Source: an uncultured bacterium
Lineage (GTDB): Bacteria > Patescibacteriota > Patescibacteriia > Magasanikbacterales > UBA922
Direction: 5' to 3'
Length of the DNA stretch: 64,000 bases
Assembly (NCBI GenBank): GCA_937861125.1
Contig: CALMAY010000038.1
Location: forward strand, 27,942 to 91,941
The notes beneath the pieces were generated by a model, which was not told where the DNA came from, made no database searches, and saw only the letters and a list, made by a program, of their open reading frames with translations. Within the stretch, counting starts at the first letter, position 1. Each line of letters begins with the position of its first letter. Below are positions 2,825 to 41,095 of this stretch, piece by piece. A program made the translations under genes and the position numbers.

Positions 2825-3673
2825 TTATCGTTGAAATAGTGACCACATGGTAGAGAGTATCTGCTGCGCAGTGTCTAGTTTGTTTTGACGATGGAGTTCT
2901 GCGGCAAAACGAACACCGCGATAACTCAGTGGTGTTGAGATAATTTCCATGTAGTGTGGGTCATGTGCAAATTCTTTTTTTGCAAAATCCCAACACGCAT
3001 ATGCTTCATCGATATTGTCTGCCTGCCCAACCATCTGGAGTGTGTAGTACACAATGTCATAATATCTAAATGACCAACCACTCCATCCGCTGTCCACAAG
3101 TGTCAGTCTTCCTGTCTGCTTGTCTTTTGCTATATGCCATGGGACGAGATCGTGGTGCTGAAATGCACGAGTATCAAAATGTCGCTTGAGATATGTGTGG
3201 AGCTGTTCTGCTTGTGTCTGAGTGATAAGCGTGTGTTCCAAAAGGTACGTCACATCTGTCTCAAAACGCGGCCAATTGAGCTGACGTCTCTCGTCGCTAT
3301 CATCTCTGATCTCTGTTGGAATATCACTGTAGGGGATGTCTAGACACCATTTCAAAAACGTAAACATTTCCTGTCTGTAACTCTCGAATGCTTGCGCATC
3401 TGCTGCCGTCTGTATGTCCGCTGCGAGCCAGTCATGTGTGGTGCTGATATCGGGGTAGACGAGAGAGGTGCCATCAAATGTAGGCAGGAGAAAATCAAAT
3501 CCCACCTCTTTCCCTTGGGTGTAGTGGTAGAGAAATGTTTGGTTGTGAAACTCGCGGGTGTTTTCTACAATACCTGCCGCTGTCTTGGCGTGTTTTACAA
3601 ATGTCGGTGCGTCACCTGAAAGGTTGCGGAATATATGTATATTGGCTGTTTCTTTGATCGTGTGGTATTCCAT
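2825..3673 (-). CDS. putative phosphotransferase (APH/choline-kinase-like fold), tentative
   Basis: HHDLVPWHI ... LVDSGWSG resembles the HxDxxxxN / DxG catalytic and Mg-binding motifs of the APH family. Otherwise unrecognised. Confidence 0.35.
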   Translation of the reverse strand: MEYHTIKETANIHIFRNLSGDAPTFVKHAKTAAGIVENTREFHNQTFLYHYTQGKEVGFDFLLPTFDGTSLVYPDISTTHDWLAADIQTAADAQAFESYRQEMFTFLKWCLDIPYSDIPTEIRDDSDERRQLNWPRFETDVTYLLEHTLITQTQAEQLHTYLKRHFDTRAFQHHDLVPWHIAKDKQTGRLTLVDSGWSGWSFRYYDIVYYTLQMVGQADNIDEAYACWDFAKKEFAHDPHYMEIISTPLSYRGVRFAAELHRQNKLDTAQQILSTMWSLFQR

Positions 3674-3695
3674 AGGAGGGGGTTACTATAGTCTA

Positions 3696-3733
3696 CATCA
3701 TAACAAAAAAAAGACCTCATGTATATGAGATCT
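3696..3733 (-). terminator. rho-independent terminator after tRNA-Glu
   Basis: Minus strand reads AAAGATCTCAT-atac-ATGAGGTCTTTTTTTT. Confidence 0.6.
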
Positions 3734-3736
3734 TTT

Positions 3737-3811
3737 TGGTAGCGCCAAGGGGAATCGAACCCCTGTTCTCAGGATGAAAACCTAATGTCCTAACCACTAG
3801 ACGATGGCGCC
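3737..3811 (-). tRNA. tRNA-Glu (anticodon UUC), CCA encoded
   Basis: GGCGCCATCGTCTAGTGGTTAGGACATTAGGTTTTCATCCTGAGAACAGGGGTTCGATTCCCCTTGGCGCTACCA folds as a cloverleaf by hand. Anticodon loop is TTTTCAT. Confidence 0.9.
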
Positions 3812-3818
3812 ATGTGCA

Positions 3819-4064
3819 TTATTCAAAAATGCGTCTGTATAATTTTTCTTTTTCACTACTGTTGGTTTTGAGCTGATACTCTCTTTTTCGTGCAAGCGTT
3901 CCTGATACGTATGCTTCGTAGTAGACGAGTTGGTATGGAATTTTTGAACGAATTGATTTGGTTTTACCACTATTGTGTTCCACAAGTCTTTTTCGTAGGT
4001 CTTCAGTGTATCCGATATAGGTGGTTTTGTCTATAGTGGATTGTAAAACGTATGTATAAAACAT
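3819..4064 (-). CDS. small GIY-YIG nuclease-domain protein (81 aa, catalytic domain only)
   Basis: MFYTYVLQS...TTYIGYTEDLRKRLVEHNSG is a GIY-YIG pattern (Y..Y / YIG / R / E-N). Stop lies 7 nt upstream of the tRNA-Glu 5' end. Confidence 0.8.
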   Translation of the reverse strand: MFYTYVLQSTIDKTTYIGYTEDLRKRLVEHNSGKTKSIRSKIPYQLVYYEAYVSGTLARKREYQLKTNSSEKEKLYRRIFE

Positions 4065-4071
4065 AGTCTTG

Positions 4072-4149
4072 TCAAGGATGCCACCCTACGGGTGGTCACC
4101 CGCGAGGGTGAAAAACCTAATGTCCTAACCACTAGACGATGGCGCCATG
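4072..4149 (-). pseudogene. orphan copy of the tRNA-Glu 5' half, with its anticodon loop interrupted by two GC hairpins
   Basis: 4112..4149 is identical to 3777..3814 (38 bp: 3 nt of leader plus tRNA positions 1-35). Hairpins CCACCC-TAC-GGGTGG (4081-4095) and TCACCC-GCGA-GGGTGA (4096-4111) follow. Then CATCCTTGA (4080-4072) resembles the anticodon-stem 3' strand CATCCTGA. Confidence 0.8.
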
Positions 4150-4172
4150 AGTTGAATTGTGAAAACAGTGAC

Positions 4173-4201
4173 AGTATAACTGGTTTTTGGTCGTTCGTCA
4201 A
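4173..4201 (-). promoter_or_regulatory. sigma-70-type promoter TTGACG-N17-TATACT driving remnant, GIY-YIG and tRNA-Glu
   Basis: Minus-strand -35 at 4201-4196, 17-nt spacer, -10 at 4178-4173. Back to back with the rplJ promoter. Confidence 0.6.
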
Positions 4202-4206
4202 CCCCC

Positions 4207-4235
4207 TTGACAGATATAGAGATATCCTGTATTCT
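4207..4235 (+). promoter_or_regulatory. promoter TTGACA-N17-TATTCT for rplJ-rplL
   Basis: -35 at 4207-4212, 17-nt spacer, -10 at 4230-4235. Confidence 0.55.
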
Positions 4236-4241
4236 ATCCTC

Positions 4242-4413
4242 ATAACCACAGACAGTAGCTTCCGCCCAAAGCGGATTAAATACGCTACCGAGGTGAATCT
4301 ACTCTCCCTATACATAGGGGATTTGGTCGAAGATTTATCGTTTTACTGTGGTTTTGCCACGGTTTTTTATTTCCCTGTATTTCAGGCAAATAGACCGTTG
4401 TTAAATACTTTCT
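4242..4413 (+). promoter_or_regulatory. rplJ (L10) leader with a candidate attenuator
   Basis: Terminator-like CUGUGG-UUUUG-CCACGG plus U6 at 4346-4368, about 45 nt before the rplJ start. Upstream ACCACAG (4245-4251) can pair with CUGUGGU as an alternative. Nested helix GUAGC...GCUAC contains CCGC-ccaaa-GCGG. Confidence 0.45.
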
Positions 4414-4938
4414 ATGGCAAAAACACGTGCACAAAAAGAACAAGCAGCAGTGGTGCTCGAACAAACCATGAAAAAAGCCAAAGGCATTGTCTTTGTCAAT
4501 TACCAAGGTTTGACGATTCCACAGACTGATGAGTTGCGTAAAGCATGTCGTGAAAACGACGCGGTGTTTATCGCAAGTAAAAAGACATTGGTGCGTATGG
4601 CACTTGCCAACATTGGCAGTACTGTCGACACCAAATCTTTTGATGGTTCTGTGGCTGTGATTGCAGGTATGAGTGATGAAGTTACTGCGGCTAAAATTGC
4701 AGGTGACTTCGCCAAAAAGAATGACAAACTTGTCTTCTTTGGTGGTGTCCTCGAAGGATCACTTATCGACGCACAGCAGGCAAAAGCACTCGCAGCTCTT
4801 CCAAGTAAGCAACAGCTTCTTGGTCAGCTGGTTGGAACATTGAACGCTCCAGTATCTGGATTTGTCAACGTTCTCGCTGGCAACATCCGTGGATTGGTCA
4901 CAGTCCTCGATGCAGTCAAGAGTCAGAAAGCAGCATAA
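4414..4938 (+). CDS. rplJ: 50S ribosomal protein L10
   Basis: N-terminus MAKTRAQKEQ..VFVNYQGLTIPQTDELRKACRE and position upstream of rplL. Confidence 0.9.
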   Translation: MAKTRAQKEQAAVVLEQTMKKAKGIVFVNYQGLTIPQTDELRKACRENDAVFIASKKTLVRMALANIGSTVDTKSFDGSVAVIAGMSDEVTAAKIAGDFAKKNDKLVFFGGVLEGSLIDAQQAKALAALPSKQQLLGQLVGTLNAPVSGFVNVLAGNIRGLVTVLDAVKSQKAA

Positions 4939-40070: not shown

Positions 40071-41065
40071 TTCGTCATATTTTTCATTTTATACTTTTTT
40101 TTGTTGGTACTATTAGTATTGTATATGGTATTTCTTGGTTGTTGTCACAAAAAAATTTTCAGCCAGAGTATGGTATCAGCTTCAATCATGAGCATGCATT
40201 ACATCTGGAACTTGATTGGAAATTGGTATATGGAGATATCCTCACTGACTTGCAGCCAAAATATATTCGTCTTGCGGCTATGTGGGATGAGGTAGAACCT
40301 CAAAAAGGAGAATGGTTTTTTGAACATGTTGATTTTATGCTTGATGCAGCAGCGGCAAACAATACCAAAGTATTGCTGGTGGTAGGGCAAAAAGCACCAC
40401 GGTGGCCAGAATGTCACATTCCACAGTGGGCTGAAGACGTATCTGTTCATGATAGGCGTGAGCAGGTGATGTCATATGTGAGTACTGTGGTAGAGCGATA
40501 CAAGGATCATCCTGCGCTTGAATATTGGCAGATAGAAAATGAGCCGTACATTCCGTTTACTTTTGGAGAGTGTGCAGCATTTGATCAAACTATCGTCGAA
40601 GCAGAGGTTTCGTTGGTCAAACAAATTGATCCGAATCATCCTGTGGTACTCACAGACAGTGGTGAAATGTCTATATGGTATCCAGCTGCTGTTGGCGGAG
40701 ATGTATTTGGGACGACACTTTATCGTATTGTACGTACTCCATCTGGGCGTATTTGGAATTATGATTGGATGCCACCAGGATTTTATCGTCTCAAGTCTGA
40801 GTTGTTTGGGCTATCACCTGAGACTTTTTTTGTTGCCGAATTGCAGGCTGAGCCATGGTTTACGGGAGATGGACCAAACGGTACTTCACTTGAAAGCCAG
40901 CAGGAGACAATGACTCCAGAACGTATGGCCCAACATATCGCATATGCGGACCATGTAGGTGCGTCTCGGGTGTATTTGTGGGGAGCAGAGTGGTGGTACT
41001 GGATGAGGGAGAGACACAATAATAGTTCGTTTTGGGATATAGCCAGAGATATATTGACAAGATAA
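40055..41065 (+). CDS. membrane-anchored clan GH-A glycoside hydrolase-like protein
   Basis: N-terminal TM helix. YWQIENEP (NEP acid/base motif) and FVAELQAEPW (candidate nucleophile Glu). Start uncertain (40040 or 40055). Confidence 0.4.
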   Translation: MFRSLVRHIFHFILFFVGTISIVYGISWLLSQKNFQPEYGISFNHEHALHLELDWKLVYGDILTDLQPKYIRLAAMWDEVEPQKGEWFFEHVDFMLDAAAANNTKVLLVVGQKAPRWPECHIPQWAEDVSVHDRREQVMSYVSTVVERYKDHPALEYWQIENEPYIPFTFGECAAFDQTIVEAEVSLVKQIDPNHPVVLTDSGEMSIWYPAAVGGDVFGTTLYRIVRTPSGRIWNYDWMPPGFYRLKSELFGLSPETFFVAELQAEPWFTGDGPNGTSLESQQETMTPERMAQHIAYADHVGASRVYLWGAEWWYWMRERHNNSSFWDIARDILTR

Positions 41066-41082
41066 AAAAAATGGGATACACT
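41054..41082 (+). promoter_or_regulatory. promoter TTGACA-N17-TACACT for tRNA-Val
   Basis: -35 at 41054-41059 (inside the end of the preceding CDS) and -10 at 41077-41082. Confidence 0.55.
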
Positions 41083-41095
41083 ATTCCCATTCGAT

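What the first reader, a model, noticed from the sequence alone, without database searches (positions are those of the whole stretch)
3737..4201. tRNA-Glu locus carries a 297-bp GIY-YIG-only cassette bounded by 38-bp direct repeats of the tRNA 5' half
The minus strand reads in this order. First a strong promoter (TTGACG-N17-TATACT, 4201-4173). Then an orphan copy of tRNA-Glu positions 1-35 plus 3 leader nt (4149-4112), identical to 3814-3777. Then two tight GC hairpins (4111-4081) sitting where the anticodon loop should continue, followed by CATCCTTGA, which still resembles the anticodon-stem 3' strand. Then an 81-aa GIY-YIG ORF (4064-3819), a 7-nt gap, the intact tRNA-Glu(UUC) (3811-3737) and a terminator. 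No other promoter is visible, so the functional tRNA would have to be matured from the 3' end of the nuclease mRNA. The layout looks like an att-like duplication left by a very small element that targets the tRNA gene and regenerates it by carrying its own 5' half. It has no integrase or transposase, only a catalytic-domain-only GIY-YIG protein. I do not know of a described system with this architecture.
Basis: partly seen in the sequence, partly recalled or inferred. Interest (0 to 1): 0.8.

Follow-up and report, generated by a model that had tools for sequence, protein, structure and literature searches.

The report
Tiny nuclease cassette inside tRNA gene
A 335-bp selfish insert carrying only an 81-amino-acid nuclease gene sits inside this bacterium's glutamate tRNA gene and rebuilds the tRNA beside itself; it belongs to a large family of such tRNA-gene parasites, found in distant bacterial phyla, for which I found no description in the papers I could search.

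Summary
A close relative (L082) has the empty site: one contiguous tRNA-Glu behind the same promoter, leader and terminator. The window equals that allele plus 335 bp. The '38-bp repeat + hairpins + CATCCTTGA' is a dead copy of tRNA positions 1-~47. Its anticodon is split between U35 and C36 by a 31-nt GC-rich double hairpin (HP). Next come the 81-aa GIY-YIG ORF and the rebuilt tRNA. The layout is a family trait. In two independent sets of relatives, 48/76 and 45/75 ORFs are followed within 80 nt by a same-strand tRNA or tmRNA (0.2-0.6 expected). Closest relatives all sit at tRNA-Glu, in Patescibacteria and Cytophagales. HP stems covary (98.5% paired, 7/12 compensatory pairs). HP lies at the loop breakpoint next to displaced tRNA fragments. 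Some loci carry a whole replacement tRNA or tandem arrays broken exactly at 35|36 or 56|57. The protein is a minimal Slx1/UPF0213-type nuclease with no DNA-binding domain. Best reading: a homing-type element copied into broken tRNA genes through tRNA homology and expressed from the tRNA promoter. The closest analogue is the fungal mitochondrial 'mobile ORF'. Cleavage, HP function and self-immunity are untested. No description found in searchable papers.

The parts
4173..4201 (-). Native tRNA-Glu promoter (TTGACG-N17-TATACT). It now drives pseudo-tRNA, ORF and tRNA.
   Evidence: 10/12 matches. The -10 box and the 26-nt leader are identical in the empty allele L082, and the TTGACG -35 hexamer matches. 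Function as a promoter is inferred.
4112..4149 (-). Displaced native 5' part of tRNA-Glu: 3 leader nt (CAT) plus tRNA positions 1-35. Left copy of the 38-nt direct repeat.
   Evidence: It is contiguous with the native promoter and leader, as in L082.
4081..4111 (-). HP: 31-nt GC-rich (71% GC) double hairpin, TCACCC-tcgc-GGGTGA + CCACCC-gta-GGGTGG. It is inserted between anticodon bases U35 and C36 and forms the left end of the inserted DNA.
   Evidence: Conserved and covarying across 28 distinct loci.
4065..4080 (-). Degenerate continuation of the pseudo-tRNA (CATCCTTGACAAGACT, roughly tRNA positions 36-47). Also the 5' UTR of the ORF.
   Evidence: Compared with the intact copy CATCCTGAGAACAG. 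Relatives show the same, extending at most to position 47.
3819..4064 (-). 81-aa minimal GIY-YIG nuclease gene of the Slx1/UPF0213 type.
3812..3818 (-). 7-nt spacer TGCACAT between the stop codon and the tRNA. Its last 3 nt (CAT) belong to the right repeat copy.
3737..3811 (-). Intact, regenerated tRNA-Glu(UUC). Positions 1-35 (3811-3777) belong to the inserted DNA or the repeat. Positions 36-75 are native.
   Evidence: 100% identical to the tRNA of the empty allele.
3698..3737 (-). Native intrinsic terminator of the tRNA gene.
   Evidence: Same sequence in L082.
3777..4111 (-). The 335-bp insertion as a whole, when placed at the 35|36 junction. The 38-nt repeat makes its placement ambiguous by up to 38 nt.
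   Evidence: Repeat spacing of 335. Window minus this segment aligns colinearly with L082, 149/150 across the -10 box, tRNA and terminator.

Best explanation
This is a minimal selfish mobile element of the homing type that lives in tRNA genes. Its only gene encodes an 81-aa Slx1/UPF0213-type GIY-YIG nuclease.

Proposed cycle (inferred):
1. The nuclease breaks a tRNA gene in one of its loops. For tRNA-Glu this is the anticodon, between positions 35 and 36.
2. The broken ends are repaired by copying from an element-bearing allele. The almost universally conserved tRNA sequence serves as the homology arms.
3. The left end pairs with the dead 5' tRNA copy and copies the hairpin module, the ORF and the element's tRNA copy.
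4. The new strand then anneals to the right end. If it anneals inside the tRNA copy, the result is the window layout: dead 5' part, HP, ORF, intact tRNA. If it anneals at a dead 3' part, the result is the fuller layout seen in relatives, with HP at both ends and a complete replacement tRNA.

The essential tRNA is always rebuilt, so insertion is tolerated. The element sits between the tRNA and its strong promoter. The ORF is therefore expressed by read-through, and the tRNA is released from the 3' end of the transcript by RNase P and 3' processing.

The double hairpin marks the breakpoint in every displaced tRNA fragment. It most likely destroys the cleavage site there, is itself the structure the nuclease recognises, or both.

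Shown: the insertion polymorphism, the conserved architecture, the target fidelity of clades, hairpin covariation, imported tRNAs, breakpoint arrays, and an intact nuclease fold and motif residues.

Inferred: cleavage, repair-mediated copying, co-transcription, and the hairpin's role.
For: 1. Filled versus empty alleles. Window = L082 + 335 bp, with the same -10 box, leader, tRNA and terminator. L085 is also empty.

2. Family-wide linkage to tRNA genes.
- 48/76 GTDB loci have a same-strand tRNA or tmRNA starting -30..+80 nt from the ORF end (0.18 expected).
- 45/75 metagenome loci do so (0.6 expected).
- Binomial P is 1e-74 or lower in both sets.

3. Target fidelity follows ORF phylogeny. The closest ~30 relatives all sit at tRNA-Glu. 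Other clades sit at Ser, Tyr, Cys, Asp, Arg, Ala, Lys, Ile and tmRNA.

4. Transfer between phyla. The Cytophagales/Bacteroidota loci nest inside the Patescibacteria Glu clade at 60-68% amino-acid identity.

5. Imported tRNAs.
- In L004 the resident tRNA has acceptor GCCGCCA/TGGCGGT. The flanking pseudo-5' (GGCCCGT) and pseudo-3' (ACGGGCT) parts pair with each other instead.
- L017, L024 and L025 likewise differ between the pseudo and resident copies, and in L020 the outer pseudo-3' part differs from the resident tRNA.

6. Recurrent loop breakpoints.
- HP lies at 35|36 in 28 distinct loci.
- L014 has extra [leader + tRNA 1-35] units cut exactly at T35.
- L167 has 3.5 tandem [ORF + HP|57-76 + terminator] units broken at T-loop position 56|57.
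- Tandem pseudo-3' arrays occur in L016, L020 and L055.

7. HP is under structural selection. 98.5% of cells are paired versus 83.7% in shuffles (0/500). 7/12 pairs show compensatory changes. Slid controls give 24-48%. HP occurs upstream or downstream of the ORF and in both orientations, so it acts at the DNA junction rather than as a 5' UTR element.

8. The protein.
- Y5, Y16, G18, R26, H30 and E62 are invariant across 36 homologues with 45% mean column identity.
- AlphaFold model pLDDT is 94.
- Best structural and sequence matches are UPF0213 (1zg2, 1ywl) and the Slx1 nuclease domain, TM 0.65-0.72.

9. A described precedent for the logic. Fungal mitochondrial mobile ORFs insert with a replacement gene end and leave the native end as a pseudo-piece. 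Their endonuclease has been shown to drive mobility (PMC3630166).
Against: - No cleavage data exist for any member of the family.
- The protein has no DNA-binding domain, so sequence-specific recognition of a tRNA gene is unexplained.
- The rebuilt tRNA next to the nuclease gene is 100% identical to the empty-allele tRNA. The element-bearing chromosome therefore keeps an intact target, with no visible self-immunity.
- The origin of the hairpin module is unexplained. So is its conservation of sequence (ACCC/GGGT cores) as well as structure.
- All 9 contigs of this species are filled. Polymorphism is seen only between lineages that share ~85% nucleotide identity.
- Prokaryotic minimal GIY-YIG genes have old links to tRNA methyltransferase genes (PMC1564403). 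This leaves room for an RNA-directed or host function.
- A second clade has long inverted repeats instead of HP, which looks more like a transposon.
Confidence: 0.6

Rival explanations
1. Hairpin-ended transposon. The small Slx1-like nuclease is a structure-specific enzyme that cuts at the element's own hairpin or inverted-repeat termini and at hairpin loops of the tRNA gene. The element moves by excision (perhaps through a circle carrying one 'anticodon arm + HP' core) and insertion, not by copying after a target break.
For: - HP is dyad-symmetric, a palindrome of palindromes, and occurs in both orientations.
- In L004-type loci a complete HP sits at both ends of the imported DNA, exactly at 35|36, with no other target duplication.
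- Clade II relatives have 13-23-nt terminal inverted repeats (CCCC[TC]CAC...) around the ORF. They also have a 7-10-nt tRNA duplication that looks like a target-site duplication. L033 carries an ORF-less solo hairpin, like a MITE.
- The nearest solved relatives are Slx1 branched-DNA nucleases.
Against: - A hydrolytic GIY-YIG domain has no known strand-transfer chemistry (established knowledge).
- The window element has HP at one end only and no inverted repeats.
- Clade II members outside tRNA genes show no consistent target duplication.
- Imported tRNAs and tandem arrays are explained more simply by repair synthesis.
Confidence: 0.2
2. Integration by a site-specific recombinase supplied in trans. 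The 38-nt repeat would be an att core, and the GIY-YIG gene would be mere cargo.
For: - A direct repeat made of tRNA sequence bounds the insert, as at tRNA-targeting islands.
- The insert is lost or gained precisely relative to L082.
Against: - There is no integrase in the element.
- The same ORF-tRNA linkage holds across phyla and across at least 11 tRNA species plus tmRNA. That would need matching recombinases everywhere.
- Repeat length and position vary from locus to locus.
- The duplicated part is the 5' half or the whole tRNA, split by HP. Classical islands instead show a fixed 3' core.
- The ORF, not a recombinase, is the conserved partner of the architecture.
Confidence: 0.05
3. Host-useful gene rather than parasite. 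The nuclease acts on tRNA or tRNA genes for the cell (repair, quality control, defence or regulation) and is co-expressed with the tRNA. The pseudo-tRNA pieces would be by-products of gene duplication.
For: - The ORF is under purifying selection, with catalytic residues invariant.
- The locus is stable in this species, 9/9 contigs.
- There are historic operon and fusion links between minimal GIY-YIG genes and the COG4123 and TrmH-like methyltransferases (PMC1564403).
Against: - Close relatives lack it with no compensating change.
- Distribution is patchy and crosses phyla.
- Invasion scars and arrays accumulate at the loci.
- There is no match to any PADLOC defence model or any NCBIfam family above cutoff.
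- Selfishness and a side benefit are not mutually exclusive.
Confidence: 0.1
4. Intron (group I or other) or assembly artefact.
For: The insertion lies in the anticodon loop, which is the classical site of bacterial tRNA group I introns. Those introns are frequent in Patescibacteria (PMC13011429).
Against: - No intron or ribozyme model matches, even at E <= 10.
- An uninterrupted tRNA lies right next to the insert, so no splicing is needed.
- The sequence between the 5' copy and the tRNA is almost entirely ORF.
- The layout recurs in many independent assemblies.
Confidence: 0.02

Closest known systems
Mobile ORFs (mORFs) of fungal mitochondria: free-standing endonuclease genes (LAGLIDADG or GIY-YIG) in atp6, atp9, cox2 and nad3 of Allomyces, Glomus, Rhizopus and Mortierella (PMC3630166)
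   Same: - An endonuclease ORF inserts into an essential gene.
- It brings a replacement copy of the interrupted gene part, so function is kept.
- The native part stays next to it as a dead fragment.
- It is transcribed with the host gene.
- It spreads between species.
   Different: - Here the target is a tRNA gene in a bacterial chromosome.
- The replaced part is the 5' half or the whole gene, where mORFs replace the 3' end.
- The nuclease is an 81-aa catalytic domain of the Slx1/UPF0213 branch with no DNA-binding part.
- A conserved double hairpin marks every breakpoint.
Free-standing GIY-YIG homing endonucleases of T-even phages (Seg proteins; SegB lies in the T4 tRNA gene cluster, PMC2330249) and 'intronless homing'
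   Same: - A GIY-YIG nuclease gene outside any intron.
- It lies next to tRNA genes.
- It is inherited preferentially through break repair with co-conversion of flanks.
   Different: - Seg proteins are 200+ aa with DNA-binding modules. The window protein reaches only 18 bits against TIGR01453 (cutoff 56) and TM ~0.5 against I-TevI.
- The family is almost absent from phage and viral collections.
- Seg loci have no pseudo-tRNA halves and no hairpin module.
UPF0213 / YhbQ-type and Slx1 minimal GIY-YIG proteins (PDB 1zg2, 1ywl; Slx1 6sei, 7cq2, 4xm5; 'Slx-1 cluster' of PMC1564403)
   Same: - Best sequence and fold matches.
- Same ~80-100-aa single-domain build.
- Slx1 cuts branched and hairpin DNA, which fits loop-directed breakpoints.
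   Different: - The bacterial members have no assigned function. I found no paper linking them to mobile elements or to insertion in tRNA genes.
- Slx1 needs Slx4 and a RING domain.
tRNA-gene-targeting integrative elements (tyrosine or serine integrase islands and prophages)
   Same: - They insert in a tRNA gene, which is a conserved landing pad.
- They restore the gene with their own copy of part of it.
- They leave a direct repeat.
   Different: - They encode an integrase.
- They duplicate a fixed 3' core.
- They are kilobases long.
- Here there is no recombinase, the 5' half or whole tRNA is duplicated, and the insert is 335 bp.
Group I introns with homing endonuclease genes in tRNA anticodon loops of Patescibacteria and Cyanobacteria (PMC13011429)
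   Same: - Same hosts and the same neighbourhood in the gene (positions 33-37).
- Endonuclease-driven homing.
   Different: - Those rely on RNA splicing to keep the tRNA functional.
- This element has no ribozyme and keeps function at the DNA level by duplication.
Double-hairpin elements and GC-rich palindromic clusters of fungal mitochondrial DNA (named in papers found; details from my own knowledge)
   Same: Short GC-rich units that fold into two adjacent hairpins. They are found at insertion points and are associated with mobile endonuclease ORFs.
   Different: - No sequence relationship was tested.
- The mitochondrial elements are dispersed repeats. HP here occurs once in 64 kb and only at the element junction.

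Membership tests
GIY-YIG nuclease superfamily (Pfam PF01541) | Profile match above the curated cutoff | tested here: met
   50.5 bits against a cutoff of 22.6, E = 2.7e-13, residues 1-71.
GIY-YIG nuclease superfamily (Pfam PF01541) | Conserved active-site residues (Tyr of GIY, Tyr-x-Gly of YIG, Arg, His, Glu) | tested here: met
   Y5, Y16, G18, R26, H30 and E62 are invariant in 36 homologues. Assigning them to catalytic roles rests on established knowledge of I-TevI and UvrC.
Slx1 / UPF0213 minimal GIY-YIG branch | Closest sequence relatives are UPF0213 and Slx1, not the I-TevI/UvrC lineage | tested here: met
   Profile A1 against PDB: 1zg2 at 1.9e-13, 1ywl at 2.3e-10, SLX1 at 1.2e-5 to 4e-3, I-TevI at 4.6e-3.
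Slx1 / UPF0213 minimal GIY-YIG branch | Single-domain fold that superposes on the Slx1 nuclease domain | tested here: met
   AF2 pLDDT 94.4, 81 aa. Foldseek against Slx1: TMq 0.65-0.72, rmsd 2.1-3.7. Against I-TevI: TMq 0.51.
Slx1 / UPF0213 minimal GIY-YIG branch | Structure-specific cleavage of branched or hairpin DNA | not testable with these tools
   Needs biochemistry.
Canonical GIY-YIG homing endonucleases (I-TevI / Seg type) | Catalytic domain joined to a C-terminal DNA-binding domain | tested here: not met
   The protein ends at residue 81. TIGR01453 scores 18 bits against a cutoff of 56.
Canonical GIY-YIG homing endonucleases (I-TevI / Seg type) | Presence/absence polymorphism at one defined genomic site | tested here: met
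   Window filled; L082 and L085 empty.
Canonical GIY-YIG homing endonucleases (I-TevI / Seg type) | Site-specific cleavage of the empty allele | not testable with these tools
   Only indirect evidence: recurrent breakpoints at 35|36 and 56|57.
Mobile ORF (mORF) type homing element | Endonuclease ORF inserted in a gene together with a replacement copy of the interrupted part, with the native part left as a fragment | tested here: met
   Window: native 1-35 (+HP), ORF, rebuilt tRNA. L004: whole foreign tRNA between the two host halves. Definition taken from PMC3630166.
Mobile ORF (mORF) type homing element | Replacement part is foreign (diverged from the native part) | tested here: inconclusive
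   Met in L004, L017, L024, L025 and L020. In the window the two copies are 38/38 identical, so no donor signature remains.
Group I intron in a tRNA gene | Ribozyme core detectable by covariance model | tested here: not met
   No intron family in 3400-4600, even at E <= 10.
Group I intron in a tRNA gene | The only tRNA copy is interrupted and needs splicing | tested here: not met
   An uninterrupted tRNA lies at 3811-3737.
Integrase-type tRNA-targeting island | Tyrosine or serine recombinase gene in the element | tested here: not met
   The 335-bp insert holds only the GIY-YIG ORF.
Integrase-type tRNA-targeting island | Direct repeats of a tRNA segment at both ends | tested here: met
   38-nt exact repeat. 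It is the 5' half, and its extent varies among relatives.
Insertion sequence / MITE | Terminal inverted repeats and a short target-site duplication | tested here: not met
   No inverted repeats in 3400-4700. Best ORF-flanking complementarity is 6 nt. Clade II relatives do have 13-23-nt inverted repeats.
Insertion sequence / MITE | Transposase of a known class (DDE, HUH, Ser/Tyr, Cas1) | tested here: not met
   GIY-YIG is the only significant Pfam match; two related families score below their cutoffs.

The most novel reading that the evidence does not exclude
The family is a new class of bacterial mobile element in which an ~80-aa structure-specific (Slx1-like) nuclease needs no DNA-binding domain. 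It would recognise hairpin or cloverleaf DNA extruded at tRNA genes and at its own hairpin termini, while target choice is set by the tRNA copy the element carries. This would give the long-orphan UPF0213/YhbQ protein family its first function. It would also define the smallest known autonomous DNA element (~300 bp), able to move between phyla because tRNA genes are nearly identical everywhere.
Probability: 0.3. Interest if true: 0.9.

Novelty: new variant of a known kind. Interest (0 to 1): 0.8.

Why it matters
- It would establish a widespread family of some of the smallest self-contained mobile elements, about 300 bp with one 80-aa protein. The family counts 5,292 cluster representatives at E <= 1e-3. 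I found no description of it in the papers I could search.
- It would give a concrete, testable role to the minimal Slx1/UPF0213 GIY-YIG proteins, which have been 'function unknown' since their structures were solved in 2005.
- It shows a DNA-level alternative to introns for parasitising an essential RNA gene: duplicate the gene and do without splicing.
- It explains odd pseudo-tRNA fragments, hairpin-bearing tRNA remnants and mis-extended small ORFs in CPR and Bacteroidota assemblies.
- If the nuclease is loop- or structure-directed and target choice comes from carried homology, the system is a natural template for small programmable insertion cassettes.

Tried and rejected
- **Rfam scan of 3400-4600 at E <= 10.** Only the tRNA and the neighbouring L10 leader matched. 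No intron or other family covers the pseudo-tRNA/hairpin region.
- **Inverted-repeat search around the ORF.** None found.
- **More copies in the window.** There is one GIY-YIG and one double hairpin. A weak tblastn hit just before tRNA-Val (41044-41094) is the C-terminus of a 341-aa host ORF and was dismissed.
- **Phage or viral vector.** 13 weak phage hits and a single IMG/VR locus, so the element is not phage-borne.
- **Defence-system or named-family membership.** Nothing above cutoff in PADLOC or NCBIfam.
- **Broad alignment A1 as a locus-search query.** The narrower A2 was used instead.
- **Exact-match search for the leader + tRNA junction in metagenome contigs.** No hits.
- **HP as a 5' UTR or translational element.** Rejected, because in L007, L009, L042 and L167 it lies downstream of the ORF.
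- **HP copied from elsewhere in the element.** Reading the window ORF sequence by eye, I saw no GGGTG or CACCC; this was not checked by a search.
- **Extension of the repeat 3 nt into the leader (CAT) as evidence for an in-situ target duplication.** Weak. The window and both empty alleles (L082, L085) have CAT before tRNA-Glu, and many filled loci have AT.
- **RNA fold of the 5' region.** The minimum-energy fold merges the two hairpins into one long hairpin (z = -1.8). Covariation supports the two-hairpin reading.
- **Eight literature searches**. No description of GIY-YIG cassettes in bacterial tRNA genes was found.
Full report
**1. The observation**

Read on the minus strand, the window shows the following.
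- A sigma-70-like site, TTGACG-N17-TATACT, at 4201-4173.
- A 26-nt leader.
- CAT plus tRNA-Glu positions 1-35 at 4149-4112.
- A 31-nt segment, TCACCCTCGCGGGTGA CCACCCGTAGGGTGG, at 4111-4081.
- CATCCTTGACAAGACT at 4080-4065.
- An 81-codon ORF at 4064-3819, then 7 nt.
- An intact tRNA-Glu(UUC) at 3811-3737, and a terminator.

The 38-nt repeat is exact, with a spacing of 335. The ORF is a GIY-YIG domain. The tRNA scores 63 bits in Rfam, and no RNA family covers the region upstream of the ORF, even at E <= 10.

The window holds one such ORF and one double hairpin, against 0.05 expected in shuffles. The hairpin segment is 71% GC in a 42% GC genome. The ORF is 35% GC.

The identical protein with the same neighbours is on 9 contigs. 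This is not an assembly accident.

One correction to the description. After the hairpins the upstream copy continues to resemble the tRNA, CATCCTTGACAAG against CATCCTGAGAACAG. The structure is therefore a pseudo-tRNA running from position 1 to about 47, with the hairpins inserted between anticodon bases 35 and 36.

**2. The empty site**

I searched for homologues of the 282-aa protein encoded just downstream of the tRNA and fetched their contigs.

L082, whose neighbouring protein is 82% identical, has a single contiguous tRNA-Glu at 1766-1840. It lies behind cccTTGACG-N17-TATACT and an identical 26-nt leader. An identical terminator and the same downstream gene follow.

Removing window 4111-3777 makes the two sequences colinear. 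They match 149/150 from the -10 box through the tRNA and terminator, against about 85% identity in the flanking genes.

L085 is a more distant relative that keeps the window's rplL-rplJ / tRNA-Glu / 285-aa order. It is also empty.

So the 335 bp are an insertion.

**3. The family**

The ORF has 175 close homologues in the word-indexed search. They are almost all 78-130 aa and mostly from Patescibacteria, with some from Flammeovirgaceae. An exhaustive phmmer search finds 5,292 cluster representatives at E <= 1e-3 and 261 at E <= 1e-10.

I studied the best 80.
- In 48 of 76 testable loci a tRNA or tmRNA gene on the same strand starts between -30 and +80 nt from the end of the ORF match.
- Three more loci have the intact tRNA just upstream.
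- Three more have it after a second pseudo-copy.

An independent set of 80 metagenome loci gives 45 of 75. Background tRNA density in the same loci predicts 0.18 and 0.6.

The closest ~30 relatives all sit at tRNA-Glu. On a neighbour-joining tree, other clades sit at Ser, Tyr, Asp, Cys, Arg and Leu. A second large clade sits at Ala, Lys, Ile, Gly, tmRNA, or outside tRNA genes.

Five Cytophagales/Bacteroidota MAGs, one on a 303-kb contig, nest inside the Patescibacteria tRNA-Glu clade at 60-68% amino-acid identity. That implies transfer between phyla.

The family is almost absent from phage genomes and viral contigs.

**4. The hairpin module (HP)**

Nearly every tRNA-Glu locus has the same device: aggtttt | TCNSCC-loop-GGSNGA YCNSCC-loop-GGSNGR | catcc.

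In an alignment of 28 distinct copies:
- 98.5% of cells pair, against 83.7% in shuffles (0 of 500 reach it);
- 7 of 12 pairs show compensatory changes, in 43 cells;
- sliding the partners drops pairing to 24-48%.

The second hairpin is often the reverse complement of the first, loops included (L021, L022, L024, L025). The unit is therefore dyad-symmetric, and it occurs in both orientations (L070, L040, L016).

Its position differs between clades but is always a tRNA loop.
- Anticodon: Glu 35|36, Tyr and Ser 34|35.
- D-loop: Cys, Asp, Leu.
- T-loop, 56|57: L016, L020, L009, L042, L167.

HP is found upstream of the ORF in the window type. It is found downstream of the ORF where the intact tRNA precedes the ORF (L007, L009, L042, L167). 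It is therefore a DNA-level junction feature and not a 5' UTR element.

The rule that fits all cases is this. HP lies at the loop breakpoint, between a displaced native tRNA fragment and the imported DNA.

**5. Layout variants and what they imply**

- **(A) The window type:** pseudo-5' part with HP, then ORF, then intact tRNA.
- **(B) L004, L016, L025, L030, L031 and others:** pseudo-5' with HP, ORF, intact tRNA, spacer, then a pseudo-3' part that begins 7-14 nt before a second, identical HP.
- **(C) L007, L009, L042, L167:** intact tRNA, ORF, then HP and pseudo-3'.

In L004 the two pseudo-halves have acceptor strands GGCCCGT and ACGGGCT, which pair with each other. The resident tRNA has GCCGCCA/TGGCGGT. 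L017, L024 and L025 likewise differ between the pseudo and resident copies. In L020 the outer pseudo-3' part (TGGCGGT) differs from the resident tRNA (ATGGGCT). The element can therefore bring a complete replacement tRNA and split the host's gene.

Several loci are graveyards of repeated events.
- L014 has two extra [33-nt leader + tRNA 1-35] units cut exactly after T35.
- L016, L020 and L055 have tandem pseudo-3' units.
- A 4.9-Mb contig (L167) has two intact tRNA-Glu genes followed by 3.5 tandem 380-nt units of [ORF, GGTTC|HP|GATTCCCC...acceptor, terminator, UTR].

**6. The protein**

Y5, Y16, G18, R26, H30 and E62 are invariant over 36 homologues with 45% mean column identity. These are the GIY, YIG, Arg, His and Glu positions of the superfamily; that assignment rests on established knowledge.

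The AlphaFold model is confident, with pLDDT 94.4 and a beta-beta-alpha-beta-alpha-alpha order.

Sequence-profile and fold searches both rank UPF0213 proteins (1zg2, 1ywl) and the Slx1 nuclease domain first. The I-TevI catalytic domain ranks lower.

There is no second domain. The group I intron endonuclease model TIGR01453 scores 18 bits against a cutoff of 56.

The 2006 survey of the superfamily placed such minimal prokaryotic proteins in the 'Slx-1 cluster'. It noted operons and fusions with COG4123 and TrmH-like methyltransferases, but no mobile-element or tRNA-gene context (PMC1564403). COG4123 is today's tRNA m6A37 methyltransferase; that identification is from my own knowledge.

**7. Mechanism**

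The evidence fits a homing cycle. All of the following steps are inferred.
1. A break is made in a tRNA-gene loop.
2. The left end (...1-35) invades the pseudo-5' copy of a donor. It copies HP, the ORF and the element's tRNA.
3. The nascent strand anneals to the right end.
   - If it anneals inside the element's tRNA (positions 36-76), the product is the window type. The native 3' half and terminator are retained, as observed against L082.
   - If it anneals at a donor pseudo-3' part, the product is type B.
4. Two-ended synthesis on a donor carrying one 'anticodon arm + HP' core would also yield HP at both ends.

Self-cleavage of the resident tRNA, repaired out of register from the adjacent copy, would produce the tandem arrays with loop-exact breakpoints.

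Because tRNA-Glu is nearly identical across phyla (compare L085, L009 and L004), the homology arms work in distant hosts. Clade-specific target fidelity can come from the tRNA copy the element carries, not from the 80-aa protein.

The element separates the tRNA from its only strong promoter. The ORF-to-tRNA gap is 3-35 nt in most loci, with no terminator between them. Co-transcription, with RNase P releasing the tRNA, is therefore the simplest reading.

*Open points*
- There is no cleavage evidence.
- There is no visible immunity for the rebuilt tRNA, which is identical to the empty-allele tRNA.
- The origin of HP and its conserved ACCC/GGGT cores are unexplained.
- It is not known whether HP blocks re-cleavage, is the nuclease's binding or cutting site, or limits recombination between the repeats.

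**8. Rivals**

*Hairpin-ended transposon.* This is the serious alternative, and also the most novel reading. It draws support from the dyad-symmetric HP termini in type B. It also draws on the 13-23-nt inverted repeats CCCC[TC]CAC...GTG[AG]GGGG that bracket clade II ORFs, with a 7-10-nt tRNA duplication, and on the ORF-less solo hairpin in L033. Against it: GIY-YIG domains have no known strand-transfer chemistry, and the window element has one HP and no inverted repeats.

*Trans-acting integrase, host-function gene, intron, artefact.* The same ORF-tRNA linkage holds across many tRNA species and phyla. Relatives carry empty alleles. No ribozyme is detectable. The layout recurs in independent assemblies. 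Each of these rivals fails on at least one of these points.

**9. Comparison with what is known**

The closest described system is the fungal mitochondrial mobile ORF. There, an endonuclease gene inserts in atp6, atp9, cox2 or nad3 together with a replacement C-terminus, and the native C-terminus is left as a fragment. Mobility driven by the endonuclease has been shown biochemically (PMC3630166).

T4 SegB, a GIY-YIG homing endonuclease in the phage tRNA cluster, is a second relative in logic (PMC2330249).

This element differs from both in several ways.
- The nuclease branch: Slx1/UPF0213, catalytic domain only.
- The target: bacterial chromosomal tRNA and tmRNA genes.
- The geometry: the 5' half or the whole gene is replaced.
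- The conserved hairpin module.

A 2026 survey of insertions in Patescibacteria tRNA genes reports group I and group II introns and their HNH, LAGLIDADG and PD-(D/E)XK endonucleases. It reports no GIY-YIG cassette, pseudo-tRNA halves or hairpins (PMC13011429). Eight full-text searches found no description. The searchable library lacks most subscription-journal papers, so absence is not proof.

**10. Verdict**

The finding is real and its interpretation is essentially right. It opens onto a large, coherent family that appears to be undescribed. I rate it a new variant of a known kind: a free-standing homing endonuclease element that carries a replacement of its target. There is a substantial chance (~0.3) that the mechanism, structure-directed cutting by a domain-only nuclease with hairpin termini, is new in kind. 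Interest 0.8.

Noticed in passing
window 4207-4378 (+ strand): A ribosomal protein L10 leader (RF00557) matches at 43.5 bits, just under the gathering score of 44. It lies upstream of rplJ (4414-4938). Its promoter-like site, TTGACA-N17-TATTCT (4207-4235), sits back to back with the tRNA-Glu promoter, 6 nt apart. The relative L085 shows the same divergent arrangement; L082 has an HTH gene there instead.
   Followed up: partly
L035, L036, L039, L041, L045-L052, L054, L057-L060, L063, L065, L068, L071, L072, L076-L078, L080, L081 (around 2470-2780 in most loci): A second clade of the same ORF family is bracketed by 13-23-nt inverted repeats: CCCC[TC]CAC... before the ATG and ...GTG[AG]GGGG overlapping the stop codon. 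At Ala, Lys and Ile tRNAs the left repeat follows tRNA positions 1-10. The terminal GGG of the right repeat doubles as tRNA positions 1-3. Several members are not at tRNA genes at all. This looks like a 275-bp transposon.
   Followed up: partly
L033 2760-2890: An ORF-less long hairpin (CCCCTCACTCAGGAATTTT-gcg-AAAAATTCCTGAGTGAGGGG) sits in the 5' end of an intact tRNA-Lys, next to a clade II ORF. It is a MITE-like solo derivative.
   Followed up: no
L071 2767-3108; L166: Two family members sit directly upstream (29-30 nt) of tmRNA genes and not tRNA genes. The target range therefore includes tRNA-like domains.
   Followed up: no
P0002, P0012, P0013, P0028 (C-termini); L004, L008, L010, L014, L016, L018, L020, L022: In many loci the ORF has no stop codon before the tRNA and reads into it. 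This gives predicted proteins with ...PSSNG or ...SSSG tails that are translations of the tRNA 5' end (CCATCGTCTAACGGTTAG). They are annotation artefacts, or genuine overlap of the stop codon with the tRNA.
   Followed up: partly
window 3560-4180 versus L082: From the -10 box through the tRNA, the terminator and the first ~100 nt of the next gene, identity is 92-100%. The rest of the shared genes run at ~85%. This could be a recent recombination tract around the tRNA gene or unusually strong constraint.
   Followed up: partly
HP (window 4081-4111) versus clade II repeats: Both end modules share a TCACC / GGTGA motif: T-TCACC-C...G-GGTGA-CC in HP, and CCCC-TCACC...GGTGA-GGGG in clade II. This may be a common recognition element. 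Seen by eye only.
   Followed up: no
L003 1666-2134; L015 2354-2904; L014 2189-2420; L009 2235-2330: Pseudo-tRNA copies also carry extra single hairpins in the D-loop (ttag|CCTGCC...GGCAGG|gac) and sometimes several nested insertions. L015 has at least four. Dead tRNA copies seem to accumulate hairpin insertions actively.
   Followed up: partly
L004, L012, L016, L020, L023, L026, L035, L037, L040, L043, L047, L058 (record titles): Many GTDB MAGs carrying the element are titled 'uncultured Gammaproteobacteria' or 'Candidatus Saccharibacteria'. Their ORFs cluster with those from loci titled Patescibacteria on the tree. The labels may be unreliable; I did not verify them.
   Followed up: no
window 4055-4166 (- strand): As RNA, the minimum-energy fold merges the two hairpins into one long imperfect hairpin and pairs the anticodon-stem remnant with the region around the start codon (-31.1 kcal/mol, z = -1.8). 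An alternative fold could occlude the start codon. Not conserved as far as I checked.
   Followed up: no
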